Position numbers and translations under genes: made by a program | Shown here: positions 7,818-40,799 of the stretch, in pieces | How the letters are laid out: every line of letters starts with the position of its first letter | How positions within the stretch are numbered: the stretch's first letter is position 1 | The notes under the pieces: generated by a model | The model's database searches: none | The model's input: only the letters and a program-made list of their open reading frames with translations | Told to the model about the DNA's origin: nothing | NCBI RefSeq assembly: GCF_947286155.1 | Contig: NZ_CAMYPD010000004.1 | Location: forward strand, 5,478 to 69,477 | Length of the DNA: 64,000 nucleotides | Source: an uncultured Tessaracoccus sp. | Lineage (GTDB): Bacteria; Actinomycetota; Actinomycetes; Propionibacteriales; Propionibacteriaceae | Reading direction: 5' to 3'

Positions 7818-8384
7818 TCATCCTCGACTCCAAGTGCGCAGGAGAGTCTTTGCACCGTGGACGGCTGCGTCAAACTCAGCGGGATCTTGCTGCGCGCGAG
7901 CCAGGACATAACCGCCTTGCACTGTAGCCACAACCAACGAGGCCAACTGGTGGGCGTCAGTCTCGGGCGGGAACTCACCTGCCTCAACCCCTTCGCTGAC
8001 AACTGCCCCGATCATCTCCACCAACCACGCCAAGGTCTCGGACACCGGCTGAAGCAGCTCAGGTGTAGCGAGCACGTCGGCGTCATACGTCATACGACCC
8101 ATGCGGCAGCCTCGGAGCGAATCACGTTGACGTTCAAGGTAGGCGACGAGACGTTCTGTGGCCGTCCCTTCGCCACGAAGCAGGGCATCCGCGTCCTCCC
8201 GCATGGCTTCCGCACTGGCTTCGAGTGCAGCCACAGCGAGAGCCTGTTTCCCCGAGAAGTGGTGGTACATGCTGCCTTGTCCGGCGTCGGCTCGGCTCAA
8301 GATCTCCTTCGGGCTGGTTGCTGCGTAACCCCGCTCCCACAGCAGCTCCTGGGCTGCATCCACAAGACGTGTCCTCGTGTCCAT
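7818..8384 (-). CDS. TetR/AcrR family transcriptional regulator
   Basis: HTH segment RTRLVDAAQELLWERGYAATSPKEILSRADAGQGSMYHHF. Start refined to MDTRTRL within track ORF 7818..8450 (approximate). Confidence 0.8.
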   Translation of the reverse strand: MDTRTRLVDAAQELLWERGYAATSPKEILSRADAGQGSMYHHFSGKQALAVAALEASAEAMREDADALLRGEGTATERLVAYLERQRDSLRGCRMGRMTYDADVLATPELLQPVSETLAWLVEMIGAVVSEGVEAGEFPPETDAHQLASLVVATVQGGYVLARAQQDPAEFDAAVHGAKTLLRTWSRG

Positions 8385-36426: not shown

Positions 36427-37476
36427 ATGACGCGCAAGAACATCGCAGTGATTGGCGGGGACGGCATCGGCCCCGAGGTGACCACCGAAGCACTCAAGGT
36501 GCTGCACGCCGCAGCGCCTGACGCATTCAACTGCACGCACTACGACCTTGGCGCGGAGCGCTGGCAGCGCACCGGCGAGGTGCTTCCCGACTCCGTGCTC
36601 GACGAGCTGCGCGGCGCAGACGCGATCGTGCTGGGCGCGGTGGGCGCGGCTCCCGGATCGAAGGCGATCCCGTCGGGGCTCCTGGAACGCGGGTTGTTGC
36701 TGCGCCTGCGCTTCGCGTTCGACCACGCCGTGAACCTGCGCCCCTCCACCCTCTATCCGGGGGTGCCGACGCCGCTCGCACCCGAGGTGGTGGAAGGCAA
36801 ACAGGTCGATTTCGTGGTGGTGCGCGAGGGCACCGAGGGCCTGTACTGCGGCAACGGCGGCGCGGTGCGCGTCGGCACGCCGCATGAAATCGCCACCGAA
36901 GTGAGCGTGAATACCGCCTACGGTGTGGAGCGCGTGGTGCGCGACGCGTACGAGCGGGCCAGCCGTCGTCGGGGGAAGCTGACGCTGCTCCACAAGCACA
37001 ACGTGCTCGTCAACGCGGGCAAGCTCTGGAACCGTGTCGTCGCTGAGATCGGCGAGGAGTTCCCCAACGTCGAGACGAACTATCTGCACATCGACGCGGC
37101 CATGATCGCGCTGGTGAAGGATCCGGCGCAGTTCGACGTGATCGTCACCGACAACCTGTTCGGCGACATCGTCACCGACCTCGCCGCCGCCGTCACCGGT
37201 GGCATCGGGCTCGCCGCCAGCGCAAATATCAACCCGTCGCGCGAATTCCCGAGCATGTTTGAGCCCGTCCACGGTTCGGCACCCGACATTGCAGGCCAGG
37301 GCATCGCCGACCCGACCGCAGCCATCTCCTCGATGGCACTGCTGCTCGATCACCTGGGCAAACACGAACAAGCGGCGCGCGTGCAAGCCGCCGTCGCAGA
37401 AGATATCAGCGAACGCGGAGCAGGCCCGGTGCGCACCACCGAGGTCGGCGACCGCATCGCAGGAAGGATCGCATGA
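36427..37476 (+). CDS. leuB: 3-isopropylmalate dehydrogenase
   Basis: [18 protein letters not shown]...[25 protein letters not shown], embedded in the longer track ORF 35806..37476. Confidence 0.9.
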
Positions 37477-38156
37477 AACCCGTCGCAGTCATCACCGGAG
37501 CCTCGCGCGGCATCGGCGCAGCCATCGCCCGCGAACTCGTACGCACGCACCACATTTTCGTCGGCGGCACCAACCCCGAGAGCGTGCTGAAGGTCGTCGA
37601 CGAGTTGGACGACGCCTCGCCGTTCGTCGCCGACCTCAACGACGACGCCGCACTCGCCGCGGCTGCGGAGCAGGTGGAGCGCTGCGACGTGCTCATCCAC
37701 AGCGCCGGCATCGAAGCGTCCAAGCCCATCGCGGAGACCACGCGCGACGACTTCCGGCAGATCTTCGAGATCAATCTGTTCGCCGTCGCCCAGCTCACCA
37801 CGCTGCTGCTGCCCAAGCTGCGGGAAGCCCGCGGCCATGTGTTCACCATCAACTCCGGCATGGGCATACGCTCCCGAGCGAACGGCGCACTCTACAGCGG
37901 CTCGAAGTTCGCGCTGCGCGCCTTCACCGACGCGCTGCGCGAGGAGGAACGCGGCACCATTCGCGTAACCTCGATCCACCCCGGACGCGTCGACACCGAC
38001 ATGCAGCGCGCCATGCAGGAGCGCGACGGCAACCCGTACCGGCAGGACAAGTACATTCGCCCGGGCGCCATCGCCGATCTCGTCCGACTCGCCGTCGACG
38101 CGACGCCCGAGGCAATGATCGAATATCTCGAAGTGCGCCCGGTCGCCACGTCGTAG
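37473..38156 (+). CDS. SDR family oxidoreductase
   Basis: [12 protein letters not shown] (TGxxxGIG) and YSGSKFAL (YxxxK). ATGA overlap with leuB. Confidence 0.85.
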
Positions 38157-38173
38157 CAGGCGAGCCGCGGCTG

Positions 38174-38194
38174 ACTACTCGGTTTCGCCTGCCA
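38174..38194. repeat. 21-bp direct repeat, copy 1 (ctactcggtttcgcctgccac); duplicates the 3' terminus of the flotillin gene
   Basis: Identical to 39297..39317, which encodes ...VVAGETE* of flotillin on the minus strand. This copy is intergenic, just after the SDR stop. Confidence 0.6.
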
Positions 38195-38316
38195 CTTTGA
38201 TGCGCGTTGCGTTACCACTCAGGTCGGTTTGGAGTATGGGCCCTGGGAAGCCAAACGTAGACTAGTCAGCAACTGTTCGCGCTGGGTGTAACCCCAGCTA
38301 GAAAGGATGCGCTCCC

Positions 38317-38553
38317 GTGGATACACGACGCAAGATCGGCTTGGGCCTCTGGGCTGCCCTCATTGCACTCGGATGCATACTTTCAGTGTTGTTGAACCAA
38401 GCCATGGACAGAGCAGATCGATTGCAAATCAGCGGTGCGCCGTCGACGATAGAATGGTGTTTGATCGCCGTATGGCTGCTGCTAGCGCTCGTAACAATCA
38501 GCTACACGCTCTGGTTTGCGATCAGCAAGCTTCGACAGCATCGCCAGGGCTAG
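38317..38553 (+). CDS. small hypothetical membrane protein (78 aa, 2 TM)
   Basis: Track ORF with two hydrophobic helices in a lower-GC insert. Weak. Confidence 0.35.
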   Translation: MDTRRKIGLGLWAALIALGCILSVLLNQAMDRADRLQISGAPSTIEWCLIAVWLLLALVTISYTLWFAISKLRQHRQG

Positions 38554-38589
38554 CCAAGAGCGCTACGTTGCCGACCAGCTGTTCATAGG

Positions 38590-39160
38590 GCCGCCACCCG
38601 GCTCAGGTTCATAGGATCATCGCAACCGGTGGGTTGACAGTACTTCGTGTTGGGTGACGTATTCGAGGCTTTTGCGGGGTCGGCGGTCCAATTGGTCGGC
38701 GACGTAGTCAAGGTCTTATTGGCTGTAGCGGCTGAGGTCGGTGCCCTTGTGGAAGAACTGACGCAGCAGGCTGTTGGTGTTTTCGTTGCTGTCTCGTTAC
38801 CAGCGCAAGTGCCGGGCCGCGAAGTAGACCTCAATGCCAGTAGGGACGCTCACGTTGCGATGAGTGGTCATCTCCTTCCCCTCGATTCCAAGTCAGCCTC
38901 GCGCGCAGTGATGCCGGAAGCGCGCCCCGAGCCTCTCGATGAGAGTCTTCTGAGTGGCTTCGACCGGATTCAAACTCCGGTCGAACCATCCAAGGATGAG
39001 GAAGGCCGAGTCACGGTCTGCAACTCACGCTTCAACCCGCCTCTGGCTTAGAGATAGATGGTCTTGTGCATGGTCTCGATGCGACCACCCCGCGAACGGC
39101 AACAGCCCACCGGGCAGCTGCTGTCGCAGGCTCAGGAACAAACTCTCCAACTCGATGCGA
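38590..39160 (-). mobile_element. IS30-family transposase remnant (multiple frameshifts and stops, about half length)
   Basis: Minus-strand fragments read ...ETMHKTIYL, ...TQKTLIERLGARF, ...PTGIEVYFAARH.LRW(stop)RDSNENTNSLLRQFFHKGTDLSRYSQ(stop)DLDYVADQLDRRPRKSLEYVTQHEVL. These match conserved IS30 transposase blocks SHETIY, LVERKSR, VYFxxPHSPWQRGxNENTNGLLRQYFPKGTDLS and LNxRPRKxLG. Confidence 0.55.
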
Positions 39161-39296
39161 ATGCTCCCTCGCCTCAGTAACCAACGGTCCTTCCGTGGCC
39201 GCTTGCGCCTGCCACATCAACCTTCTCCGCCGACACTGTTACGCCCCTAGAAGCGCCATCTCGAGGTGCACCCGCGCATCGAAGCGCTGCGCCTGG

Positions 39297-39317
39297 CTAC
39301 TCGGTTTCGCCTGCCAC
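39297..39317. repeat. 21-bp direct repeat, copy 2 (native flotillin 3' end)
   Basis: See copy 1. Confidence 0.6.
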
Positions 39318-40799
39318 GACGTCGGCCTTCCCAACGCGCTGCTTCAACACGTCCAGCAGATCGATGCCGGTGGTGTTTTTCACCAGTTCGACAGTCTGCA
39401 ACATGTTGTCGTTGACCGTCTTGGGCAGCGCGGAGGCACCGTCGGTGGATACGACGGTGAGCTTGTCGATGGAGCTGAGCGGCGCGGCCACCTTCTCCGC
39501 CACCTGCGGCAGCACCTCGATGAGCATCTGCAGCACGGCTGCCTCGTTGTAGTGCGCGAAGGCTTCGGCGCGCTTGTCCATGGCTTCCGCTTCCGCGGTA
39601 CCGACGGCGGCAACCGCAGCTGCCTTCGCCTCGCCCTCGGCGCGCACAGCTTCGGCCTCCGCGATACGCCGAGCCTTCTCAGCCTCACCGCGCTTCGCAC
39701 CCTCGAATGCCTCGGCGGTCGCGAGCGCCTGGCGACGAGACTGCTCGCCCTCACCGGAGAGGCGTTGACGCTCGGCATCGGCCTCAGCATCAGCGATCGA
39801 CGCGGCCTTGCGCGCCTCCGCTTCGTAGATGGACGCCTGGCGCCTCGCCTGCGCCTCCGTCTCAATCTCGTAACGCTTGGCGTCCGCAGGCTTGCGCACC
39901 TCGGTGTCGAGCTGGCGCTCCTTCAGCGCAGCCTGCCGCACGGCCACCTTCTCCTGCTCGGTAAGAATGGCCTGGTCACGGTCGGCTTGGGCCAGCGGGC
40001 CGGATGCCGCGGCCTGCGCCTTCGCGGCGTCCGTCTCGGCCTGAATCTCGGCTTCCTTCAGCACCAGAGCGCGCTCGGAGATGGCGATCTCCTGCGACGC
40101 GGCAATGCGCGCCTGCTCCGCCTCACGGCGAGCGTCGGCTTCGGCGATGGCAGCCAACTGGCCAACCCTCGCGGACTCGGGGCGACCGAGGTCGGAGAGG
40201 TAGGTGCCGTCGTCGGTGATGTCCTGAATCTGGAAGGTGTCGAGCACCAGGCCCTGACCTGTGAGCGACGCCTCAGATTCGTCGGCAACCCGCTGCGCGA
40301 AGGCGGCGCGGTCACGGATGATCTGCTCGACGGTGAGCGAACCCACGATAGAGCGCAGCGAACCTGCGAGGGTTTCCTGCGTGAACGTCTCGATCTCTTC
40401 CTGCTGCATGAGGAAGCGCTGCGCTGCGGCACGGATGGAGTCTTCATTGCCGCCAACCTTGACGATCGCGACGCCGTCGACGTTGAGCTTGATGCCCTGC
40501 CCGGACACGGCGTTACGGATCGTCACCATGATGCGGCGCGACGACAAGTCCAGCACGTGTAGACGCTGCACGAACGGGATGACGAACACGCCGCCACCCA
40601 TGATGACTTTCTGGCCGGACAGGTCGGTGGAGACCAAGCCCGTCTCGGGGTTCGTGACTGCTTTACCCTTCTGACCAGTAATGATGTAGGCCTCGTTGGG
40701 ACGAGATACCTTGTAGCGGCTCGCAATGAGCCAGAGGATGAGCACGACGAGCAGCACTGCGCCGCCAATACCCAAGACGATCGGTGGAAGTTCGGGCAT
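39297..40799 (-). CDS. flotillin-family SPFH/band-7 protein (YqiK-like)
   Basis: N-terminal TM helix, an SPFH domain, and a long Ala/Glu-rich coiled coil (AEADARREAEQARIAA...). Confidence 0.85.
   Translation of the reverse strand: MPELPPIVLGIGGAVLLVVLILWLIASRYKVSRPNEAYIITGQKGKAVTNPETGLVSTDLSGQKVIMGGGVFVIPFVQRLHVLDLSSRRIMVTIRNAVSGQGIKLNVDGVAIVKVGGNEDSIRAAAQRFLMQQEEIETFTQETLAGSLRSIVGSLTVEQIIRDRAAFAQRVADESEASLTGQGLVLDTFQIQDITDDGTYLSDLGRPESARVGQLAAIAEADARREAEQARIAASQEIAISERALVLKEAEIQAETDAAKAQAAASGPLAQADRDQAILTEQEKVAVRQAALKERQLDTEVRKPADAKRYEIETEAQARRQASIYEAEARKAASIADAEADAERQRLSGEGEQSRRQALATAEAFEGAKRGEAEKARRIAEAEAVRAEGEAKAAAVAAVGTAEAEAMDKRAEAFAHYNEAAVLQMLIEVLPQVAEKVAAPLSSIDKLTVVSTDGASALPKTVNDNMLQTVELVKNTTGIDLLDVLKQRVGKADVVAGETE

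What the first reader, a model, noticed from the sequence alone, without database searches (positions are those of the whole stretch)
38174..39317. 1.1 kb low-GC insert with an IS30 transposase remnant, bracketed by a 21-bp direct repeat that duplicates the flotillin gene terminus
The sequence ctactcggtttcgcctgccac occurs after the SDR stop and again as the last seven codons plus stop of the flotillin gene on the minus strand. Between the copies lie a 78-aa two-TM ORF and a heavily decayed IS30-family transposase. A 21-bp duplication is far longer than the 2-3 bp target site duplication of IS30. It resembles an att-core duplication from site-specific integration at a gene's 3' end, with later decay of the cargo.
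Basis: seen in the sequence. Interest (0 to 1): 0.55.

Follow-up and report, generated by a model that had tools for sequence, protein, structure and literature searches.

The report
Decayed islet flanked by duplication remnant
The 21-bp repeat is real and brackets a true insertion, but it is the last scrap of a roughly 200-bp duplication made when a small foreign gene islet was recombined in between two convergent genes and then whittled down by deletions, which is an ordinary case of genome decay.

Summary
CTACTCGGTTTCGCCTGCCAC occurs exactly twice (38175-38195, 39297-39317), around 1101 bp of lower-GC DNA. Three close relatives (L001-L003) have the empty site with one copy.

The att-core reading is only partly right. 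Better-preserved relatives (L102-L107) show the real duplication was about 200 bp or more. It spans the last 32 nt of the SDR gene, the 18-nt spacer and the last ~148 nt of flotillin, flanking a ~2.1-kb islet: full-length secreted DUF2599 gene, 78-aa two-TM gene, truncated IS30.

In the window, a deletion between two TGCCAC hexamers removed the left arm beyond the 21-mer and about 90% of DUF2599. The right arm's SDR copy (39258-39296) decayed. Neither insert edge is an IS end, and no integrase is present.

Best reading: relic of a Campbell-type insertion-duplication, recombinase unknown, trimmed by microhomology deletions. The islet predates the split of Tessaracoccus timonensis-group lineages and is polymorphic among them. 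ORF78 remains under purifying selection.

This is ordinary biology and of low interest.

The parts
37473..38156 (+). SDR-family oxidoreductase gene, intact. Its last 32 nt and the spacer after it belong to the duplicated segment (left, functional copy).
   Evidence: ORF; Pfam adh_short E=4e-41; NCBIfam PRK08219 E=2e-88.
38157..38174 (.). 18-nt spacer between the SDR stop and the flotillin stop as found in the empty site. It is the native left flank of the repeat.
   Evidence: Alignment with the empty sites of L001-L003.
38175..38195 (+). Repeat copy 1: the surviving 21 nt of the left arm, a displaced non-coding copy of the flotillin 3' end.
   Evidence: In the L081 group this non-coding copy carries 2 substitutions. 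In state-A contigs the left arm reaches window-equivalent 39444.
38190..38195 (+). TGCCAC microhomology at the deletion junction. It is shared by the end of the 21-mer and by codons Cys-His of the DUF2599 gene.
   Evidence: Homology of L094 and L102 to the window begins exactly here (L102 1040-2672 = window 38190-39810).
38190..38300 (+). Frameshifted 3' remnant, about the last 37 codons, of a DUF2599-family gene that is full length (321 aa, with a hydrophobic, signal-peptide-like N-terminus) in L102-L104.
   Evidence: tblastn 38184-38298; Pfam PF10783 on the L094 protein, E=5e-20; full gene.
38317..38553 (+). ORF78: an intact small protein gene with two hydrophobic segments, lying 16 nt after the DUF2599 stop. 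It is conserved in all islet-bearing lineages.
   Evidence: dN/dS is 0.03-0.26 among state B/C lineages and there are no frameshifts in 7 lineages. Hydrophobic segments.
38623..38956 (-). IS30-family transposase pseudogene, C-terminal ~115 residues only, with in-frame stops and a frameshift. The 5' two-thirds and the left inverted repeat are missing.
   Evidence: NCBIfam NF033563 E=7e-22; tblastn with two plasmid IS30 transposases; blastn against plasmids matches only window 38652-38897.
38957..39257 (.). Unassigned decayed DNA shared by all islet-bearing lineages. No recognisable coding remnant.
   Evidence: No tblastn signal for IS30, SDR or flotillin. Six frames give no NCBIfam hit at E<=5.
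39258..39296 (+). Right-arm remnant: a decayed second copy of the SDR 3' end plus spacer. Relative to the functional copy it has an 11-bp deletion, and possibly a further 5-8-bp gap to the left.
   Evidence: Alignments. Anchored extension score 7-10 against a control mean of ~1, reached by 0-3 of 300 controls. The same arm in L102 is 84-86% identical over 50 ungapped nt, reached by 0 of 200 controls.
39297..39317 (-). Repeat copy 2: the last six codons plus the stop (VAGETE*) of the functional flotillin gene.
39297..40799 (-). Flotillin / SPFH-family gene, intact. Its last ~148 nt (39297-39444) belong to the duplicated segment (right, functional copy).
   Evidence: Pfam Band_7 E=7e-26 and Flot E=3e-8. 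The left-arm copy in L104 ends at about 39444.

Best explanation
The region is the eroded relic of a small foreign gene islet that entered the junction between two convergent genes (SDR and flotillin) by an event that duplicated a contiguous target segment of about 200 bp. Both genes therefore stayed intact.

Shown: relatives with a single-copy empty site; a better-preserved form (state A) with a 2.1-kb islet (about 160 bp, then DUF2599 of 321 aa, ORF78, a truncated IS30 and unassigned DNA) flanked on the left by a copy of the flotillin 3' end reaching about 148 nt from its stop, and on the right by a copy of the last 32 nt of SDR plus the 18-nt spacer.

Strongly inferred: in the ancestor of the window-type lineages (states B and C), an approximately 1.14-kb deletion between two TGCCAC hexamers removed the left arm beyond the 21-mer, the 160 bp and about 90% of DUF2599. 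This created the apparent 21-bp repeat. The right arm's SDR copy decayed separately. A further 75-bp deletion defines state C, which includes the T. timonensis type genome.

Inferred, less certain: the founding event was a Campbell-type single crossover between the chromosome and a circular DNA that carried a copy of this junction. The enzyme could have been RecA-type homologous recombination or a now-lost site-specific recombinase. The reverse reaction between the long arms explains the empty sites nested among islet-bearing lineages.

The IS30 copy is a decayed passenger, not the agent. The only part likely still functional is ORF78.
For: The repeat is exact and unique. Empty sites: L001-L003. 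The left edge of the insert is the middle of a DUF2599 coding sequence, not an element end: L094 and L102 homology starts at TGCCAC, with the Pfam assignment. Right arm: L102 2109-2179 matches window 38125-38195 at 87%; the anchored score is 30-36 against a control maximum of 10; the window's own right arm is weaker but ends at the same boundary. Left arm: L104 1-88 matches flotillin 39357-39444, at 59/60 and then 21/27, with no homology beyond. The locus shows other microhomology or small deletions: 75 bp in state C, 66 bp in L096, and IS30-to-flotillin-interior in L094 across a 12/15 match. The islet is foreign: DUF2599 region GC 0.47-0.55, and it is absent from 80 related species loci and from the rest of the window. 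Age and polymorphism: islet divergence is about 10% between lineages whose flanks differ by 3-6%, and empty L001 and L002 interleave with islet-bearing lineages, with L003 as outgroup. IS30 is limited to 38623-38956.
Against: No state-A contig reaches far enough left to show SDR, spacer, 21-mer and flotillin fragment as one continuous stretch. L104 starts at window-equivalent 39357, so continuity of the left arm is inferred from the window's own copy 1. All state-A evidence comes from short metagenome contigs (up to 2.7 kb) that break inside the repeated arms. No circular form, integrase or donor replicon was found, so the founding mechanism is not demonstrated. The two arms differ from the functional copies by about 8% and 14%, which cannot tell an in-situ duplication from a donor-borne copy. 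The direction of change for the empty sites (ancestral or secondary loss) is not resolved for L003.
Confidence: 0.75

Rival explanations
1. One reading: an integrative element used a tyrosine or serine integrase to recombine at a 21-bp att core at the flotillin 3' end, and the cargo, including the integrase, later decayed.
For: Direct repeats flank an insertion whose empty site has one copy. The repeat overlaps a gene's 3' end and the gene stays intact. The cargo is clearly decayed.
Against: The duplicated segment was about 200 bp or more, extending on both sides of the 21-mer. The 21-mer's right boundary is a secondary deletion junction inside DUF2599. No integrase remnant is detectable in either form of the islet. 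The duplication also covers 50 nt beyond the flotillin stop, into the neighbouring gene, which an att site has no need for.
Confidence: 0.05
2. An e14 / phage-21-at-icd type of event: a site-specific element integrated inside flotillin about 148 nt from its stop and carried its own replacement 3' end (plus hitch-hiking downstream DNA from an earlier host). The original 3' end was displaced to the other side of the element.
For: The architecture matches: a displaced 3' fragment on the far side and an intact gene on the near side. At the left-arm boundary there is a 27-nt patch of partial identity that includes an exact 13-mer GCAGCGCGGAGGC, which could be a core.
Against: No integrase was found. 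No substitutions in flotillin's last 148 nt are linked to islet presence, so nothing marks that end as donor-derived. The extra SDR fragment is unexplained except as hitch-hiking.
Confidence: 0.15
3. An IS30-family element of the IS1630 type, which makes long target duplications of 16-26 bp at inverted repeats, inserted into the inverted repeat between the two stop codons and produced the 21-bp repeat as its target-site duplication.
For: An IS30 remnant is present. IS1630 copies are flanked by 16-26-bp duplications (PMC3317919). The empty site contains a 16-nt inverted repeat at 94% complementarity spanning both stops (I3).
Against: Neither insert edge is an IS end. The left edge lies within the DUF2599 coding sequence. 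The IS30 3' end faces ORF78, about 430 bp from copy 1, and the recognisable 5' limit is 340 bp from copy 2. The duplication was about 200 bp. The short inverted repeat near the edges (I15) falls in DUF2599 coding sequence and so is chance.
Confidence: 0.02
4. An in-situ origin without a circular donor. Either a tandem duplication of the ~200-bp junction segment captured foreign DNA at its novel joint (end-joining or replication template-switching), or a two-step history in which the islet first destroyed an older SDR copy and a relative's leuB-SDR-flotillin' fragment was later re-acquired by homology-facilitated illegitimate recombination.
For: The final structure is identical to the one observed. 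The locus shows repeated microhomology-mediated joins. The leuB|flotillin junction is a recurrent site of gene gain across the family.
Against: It needs either a rare capture event or two successive events. There is no direct evidence for either, and the arm divergences (about 8% and 14%) do not discriminate.
Confidence: 0.2
5. The repeat is a chance match or a dispersed genomic repeat, and the intervening DNA is native intergenic sequence.
For: None beyond the GC-rich composition.
Against: 0 matches are expected by chance. The 21-mer occurs only at this junction in 112 loci. The empty site is found in relatives, and the arms are longer in other lineages.
Confidence: 0.01

Closest known systems
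Campbell-type insertion-duplication (single-crossover integration of a circular DNA that carries a chromosomal segment)
   Same: A contiguous target segment of about 200 bp is directly duplicated on both sides of the foreign DNA. Both interrupted genes remain intact. Recombination between the arms would regenerate the single-copy empty site that is seen in relatives.
   Different: No circular form, plasmid backbone or donor was found. The arms have since been trimmed to 21-25 nt on one side and decayed on the other, so the structure is now frozen.
e14 element / phage 21 integration in E. coli icd (from my own knowledge of the system; only the integration into icd is confirmed in PMC12803456)
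   Same: Integration is within the 3' part of a protein-coding gene. The gene stays functional, and a displaced 3' fragment of the gene is left at the far end of the element.
   Different: Here no integrase is present. The duplicated segment also includes the spacer and 32 nt of the neighbouring convergent gene. No donor-type substitutions mark the functional 3' end.
IS1630 and similar IS30-family elements with long target duplications (PMC3317919, citing Calcutt et al. 1999)
   Same: An IS30-family transposase remnant lies inside a segment flanked by a 21-bp direct repeat at an inverted-repeat-containing target.
   Different: The repeat does not abut IS ends. The IS is an internal, 5'-truncated passenger, and the original duplication was about ten times longer.
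Degenerate genomic islets at variable junctions between conserved gene blocks
   Same: Low-GC foreign cargo, an IS fragment, stepwise deletions, presence/absence polymorphism within a species group, and a junction that holds different cargo in different genera.
   Different: Nothing essential. This case is unusual only in that successive decay states (A, B, C and empty) are all sampled.

Membership tests
Site-specific integrative element (att-core duplication) | An integrase or recombinase gene within the element | tested here: not met
   Pfam and NCBIfam scans of the insert's reading frames, and the gene calls on the 2.1-kb state-A islet, show only DUF2599, ORF78 and an IS30 fragment. Loss by deletion cannot be excluded.
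Site-specific integrative element (att-core duplication) | Direct repeats at both element boundaries, with a single copy in the unoccupied site | tested here: met
Site-specific integrative element (att-core duplication) | The duplicated identity is confined to a short core at the crossover point | tested here: not met
   The arms extend 50 nt to the left and about 127 nt to the right of the 21-mer in state A.
IS30-family insertion with target-site duplication | A DDE transposase of the IS30 family | tested here: met
   NF033563 E=7e-22, but only the C-terminal ~115 residues, as a pseudogene.
IS30-family insertion with target-site duplication | Terminal inverted repeats directly abutting the direct repeats | tested here: not met
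   The left edge lies inside the DUF2599 coding sequence. The IS remnant is internal, at 38623-38956.
IS30-family insertion with target-site duplication | Duplication length of 2-3 bp (16-26 bp for IS1630-like members) | tested here: not met
   The original duplication was about 198 nt or more. IS1630 range from PMC3317919.
Campbell-type insertion-duplication | A contiguous chromosomal segment directly repeated on both sides of the foreign DNA, with the flanking genes intact | tested here: met
   Continuity of the left arm between the 21-mer and window-equivalent 39357 is inferred.
Campbell-type insertion-duplication | A circular donor molecule carrying the homologous segment | not testable with these tools
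   No plasmid, phage or viral contig carries the islet. Read-level data are needed.
e14 / phage-21-icd type gene-end replacement | The functional 3' end of the target gene is element-derived and differs from that of unoccupied strains | tested here: inconclusive
   No islet-linked substitutions in flotillin 39297-39444. A closely related donor would leave none.

The most novel reading that the evidence does not exclude
DUF2599 plus the small membrane protein that follows it is a mobile two-gene module, for example a secreted effector with a membrane-embedded protective or partner protein. ORF78 would then persist in the window as an orphan partner gene, kept by selection after the DUF2599 gene was deleted. 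The evidence does not exclude this. DUF2599 has a hydrophobic, signal-peptide-like N-terminus. A small ORF with 2-3 hydrophobic segments follows it in L102, L099, a Corynebacterium plasmid and B. cereus pHT2. ORF78 has dN/dS 0.03-0.26 in lineages that lack DUF2599.
Probability: 0.15. Interest if true: 0.45.

Novelty: new member of a known kind. Interest (0 to 1): 0.22.

Why it matters
It matters mainly as a caution. A short, exact direct repeat that overlaps a gene terminus looks like an att core, but here comparative data show it is the stump of a much longer insertion-duplication cut back by a microhomology deletion. The locus also gives a sampled series of decay states (long arms with intact cargo, then a truncated form, then a further deletion, then the empty site) within one species group. 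That series illustrates how islets become fixed once their flanking homology is lost. The retained ORF78 and its recurrent pairing with DUF2599 give a small lead on an uncharacterised family.

Tried and rejected
1. An unanchored local alignment of the SDR gene against 38851-39296 was not significant (score 25, genomic controls mean 24.8). Only the extension anchored at the 21-mer was.

2. Protein-level search for a longer SDR, flotillin or leuB remnant in 38560-39296 found nothing convincing.

3. The short inverted repeat near the insert edges (38196 TTTGATGCGCG / 39273 CGCGCATCGAA, I15), with a 32-nt duplication as IS ends plus target duplication, was rejected. The left arm of that repeat is DUF2599 coding sequence.

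4. The terminator idea for the 16-nt inverted repeat at the empty site failed. It folds no better than shuffles (z about -0.9), and the scans found no terminator or promoter.

5. No closely related intact IS30 is available. Only fragments at 60% identity or less were found, and plasmid IS30s are 67-77% identical at the nucleotide level.

6. P0038, an SDR/IS30 fusion ORF, is an unrelated 600-bp contig.

7. No close DUF2599 homologs came from the indexed search. The metagenome scan gave only distant relatives (L097-L099).

8. ORF78 is absent from viral contigs, and the islet is absent from plasmids apart from the IS30 part.

9. The six frames of the unassigned 38940-39262 gave no NCBIfam hit.

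11. A test for islet-linked substitutions in the flotillin 3' end was negative.

Full report
OBSERVATION. The 21-mer CTACTCGGTTTCGCCTGCCAC is exact at 38175-38195 and 39297-39317. Even with three mismatches there are no other hits in the 64-kb window, and none are expected by chance. Copy 1 lies 18 nt after the stop of an SDR-family gene (37473-38156, +). Copy 2 is the last six codons plus the stop (VAGETE*) of a flotillin/SPFH gene (39297-40799, -). The 1101 bp between the copies have GC 0.586, against 0.647 for the window. They contain an intact 78-aa ORF with two hydrophobic segments (38317-38553) and an IS30-family transposase pseudogene (NCBIfam NF033563, E=7e-22). That pseudogene is recognisable only over 38623-38956, which is residues ~279-391 of ~390.

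EMPTY SITE. A scan of species-representative genomes with the flotillin protein placed the window in the Tessaracoccus / Propionibacteriaceae group. Three close relatives (L001, L002, L003) are 88-98% identical in leuB, SDR and flotillin. In each, the flotillin stop runs directly into the SDR side, with a single copy of the 21-mer and none of the insert. Across the 112 loci fetched, the 21-mer occurs only at this junction. This is a real insertion polymorphism.

WHAT THE INSERT IS MADE OF. The exact ORF78 sequence is not on record, but three close homolog clusters exist. Their contigs show the same arrangement (leuB, SDR, ORF78, about 750 bp, flotillin) in several lineages, including the Tessaracoccus timonensis type genome LT996886.1. 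Aligning them gave the key lead. In contig L094, the sequence homologous to window 38190-38300 is the 3' end of an intact gene. That gene belongs to Pfam DUF2599 (E=5e-20). So the left ~110 bp of the window's insert is a frameshifted remnant of a gene, not a mobile-element terminus.

THE BETTER-PRESERVED FORM. Contigs L102-L107, found through a cluster member of the L094-type ORF78, carry a full-length DUF2599 gene (321 aa, hydrophobic signal-peptide-like N-terminus, GC 0.47-0.55) followed 15 nt later by ORF78. From TGCCAC onward they are colinear with window 38190-39810 at about 90% identity. They reveal two things.
- The right arm. The 50 nt to the left of copy 2 are an 84-86% identical, ungapped copy of the last 32 nt of SDR (stop included) plus the 18-nt spacer. 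The anchored-extension score is 30-36 against a control maximum of 10, and 0 of 200 controls reach it. The window's own 39258-39296 is the same arm, further decayed by an 11-bp deletion. It was only marginally detectable alone (0-3 of 300 controls) and it ends at the same boundary.
- The left arm. Upstream of DUF2599, the left end of L104 is a copy of flotillin 39357-39444 (59/60 identical, then 21/27), and homology stops at about 39444.
The duplicated unit was therefore a contiguous segment of about 198 nt or more, spanning the SDR end, the spacer and the flotillin 3' end. It flanked an islet of about 2.1 kb.

HOW THE 21-MER AROSE. Homology between the window and L094/L102 begins exactly at TGCCAC. 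That hexamer is both the last six bases of copy 1 (38190-38195) and the Cys-His codons of DUF2599 (L102 1040-1045). The simplest reading is a deletion of about 1.14 kb between the two hexamers. It would have removed the rest of the left arm, the 160-bp leader and about 90% of DUF2599, and so set the right-hand limit of the repeat. The left-hand limit is set by decay of the right arm. The ancestral exact repeat was 25 nt (CTGG plus the 21-mer), and the window has a private G>A change at 38174. Similar small deletions are common at this locus: 75 bp shared by the L081/L089/T. timonensis forms, 66 bp in L096, and a deletion in L094 from inside the IS30 remnant into the flotillin interior across a 12/15 match.

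AGE AND POLARITY. Islet sequences differ by about 4-11% between lineages whose flanking genes differ by 3-6%. In flank identity matrices, L003 (empty) is an outgroup at about 91-92%. Empty L001 and L002 interleave with islet-bearing lineages at 94-98%. The islet therefore predates the split of these lineages. L001 and L002 most likely lost it precisely, or were converted by recombination with an empty allele. Recombination between 200-bp arms is the reverse of the proposed integration and would give exactly the observed empty site. Once the arms were cut to 21-25 nt, as in the window, the remnant became much harder to lose.

MECHANISM AND RIVALS. Any short-core att model and any transposase target-duplication model fail on the length and position of the duplication.
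- IS30-family elements such as IS1630 do make 16-26-bp duplications (PMC3317919). Here, however, neither insert edge is an IS end and the IS is an internal, 5'-truncated passenger.
- The structure is what a Campbell-type single crossover produces when the incoming circle carries a copy of the target segment. I rank this first. The recombinase is undetermined.
- An e14 / phage-21-at-icd-like site-specific event, with a crossover near 39420-39444 and an element-borne replacement 3' end, fits the geometry. It has no integrase and no islet-linked substitutions in the flotillin end.
- An in-situ tandem duplication that captured DNA, or a two-step loss and re-acquisition of SDR, gives the same end product and cannot be excluded.
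- The inverted repeat spanning the two stop codons (I3) is not exceptional thermodynamically, so I make no claim that it targeted the event.

WHAT STILL WORKS. ORF78 is intact in all seven lineages compared, while its surroundings accumulate indels. Its dN/dS is 0.03-0.26 among lineages that lack DUF2599. It is probably an expressed small membrane protein. DUF2599 genes are followed by a small ORF with 2-3 hydrophobic segments in L099, in a Corynebacterium plasmid (unannotated 84-aa ORF) and in B. cereus pHT2. DUF2599 itself is uncharacterised.

CONTEXT. In most Propionibacteriaceae, flotillin and leuB are convergent neighbours 80-150 bp apart. Several lineages carry 0.7-3.4 kb of unrelated cargo at this junction, and the SDR gene of the window's own clade is one such gain. 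The junction is a generally permissive spot.

VERDICT. This is a decayed genomic islet whose 21-bp repeat is the stump of an insertion-duplication of about 200 bp. It is a new member of a known kind and of low interest, with a modest lead on the DUF2599 and small-membrane-protein pair.

Noticed in passing
window 39225-39287: These 63 nt just downstream of the flotillin stop are invariant in all state B/C lineages compared, although the rest of the insert differs by 4-11%. The same stretch varies in state A. This may reflect a recent sweep, gene conversion, or a function such as flotillin 3' UTR or termination. The fold is not exceptional.
   Followed up: partly
L094 951-1046 (window-equivalent 38789 joined to 40436): In one state-A strain the IS30 remnant is fused to the interior of flotillin across a 12/15-nt match. 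This deletes about 1.65 kb, including the C-terminal ~380 codons of flotillin. It is probably a real microhomology deletion rather than an assembly chimera, because there is no exact k-mer overlap.
   Followed up: partly
L099 178-2793; L111 2354-2975; L112 1377-2676: DUF2599 genes are repeatedly followed by a small ORF with 2-3 hydrophobic segments. In L099 a 5'-truncated DUF2599 plus an 82-aa two-TM ORF sits beside what looks like a Tn3-family transposase (judged by eye, not scanned). On a Corynebacterium tuberculostearicum plasmid the downstream 84-aa ORF is unannotated, and a recombinase-family gene lies upstream.
   Followed up: partly
window 39200-39215: A third, partial copy of the repeat (CGCTTGCGCCTGCCAC, 14/16 to the 21-mer's last 16 nt) is specific to the window. 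Other lineages read CGCCTGCACCCTCCAC there (D1). Either chance substitutions or a small conversion patch.
   Followed up: no
L081 around 8290-8330 (window-equivalent ~38607): The L081 group has an 18-bp tandem duplication (TTCAAAGGATCACTGCAA, two copies) between ORF78 and the IS30 3' end.
   Followed up: no
flotillin|leuB junction in L004, L008, L018, L020, L025, L027, L028, L048, L070: The convergent flotillin/leuB junction is 80-150 bp in most relatives but holds 0.7-3.4 kb of different cargo in several genera. By eye from the ORF translations (no family scan), these include a transporter-like ORF, a dehydrogenase-like ORF, sugar-kinase/epimerase-like ORFs and a protease-like ORF. The SDR gene is itself restricted to the window's clade plus L004 and L009.
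   Followed up: partly
L108 432-2490 (T. timonensis LT996886.1): Between the LacI-family gene and leuD, the T. timonensis genome has two extra genes (a MazG-like gene and a ResIII / Schlafen-group-3-like helicase) that are absent at the same place in L081. This may be a small defence-type insertion. I did not check whether the window has it.
   Followed up: no
window 37473-37476: The leuB stop and the SDR start overlap in ATGA, so the clade-specific SDR gene is translationally coupled to leuB.
   Followed up: no
L095 (P0038): An unrelated 600-bp metagenome contig encodes an ORF fusing an SDR N-terminus to an IS30 transposase C-terminus. It is a coincidental echo of the gene types here, not related DNA.
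   Followed up: yes
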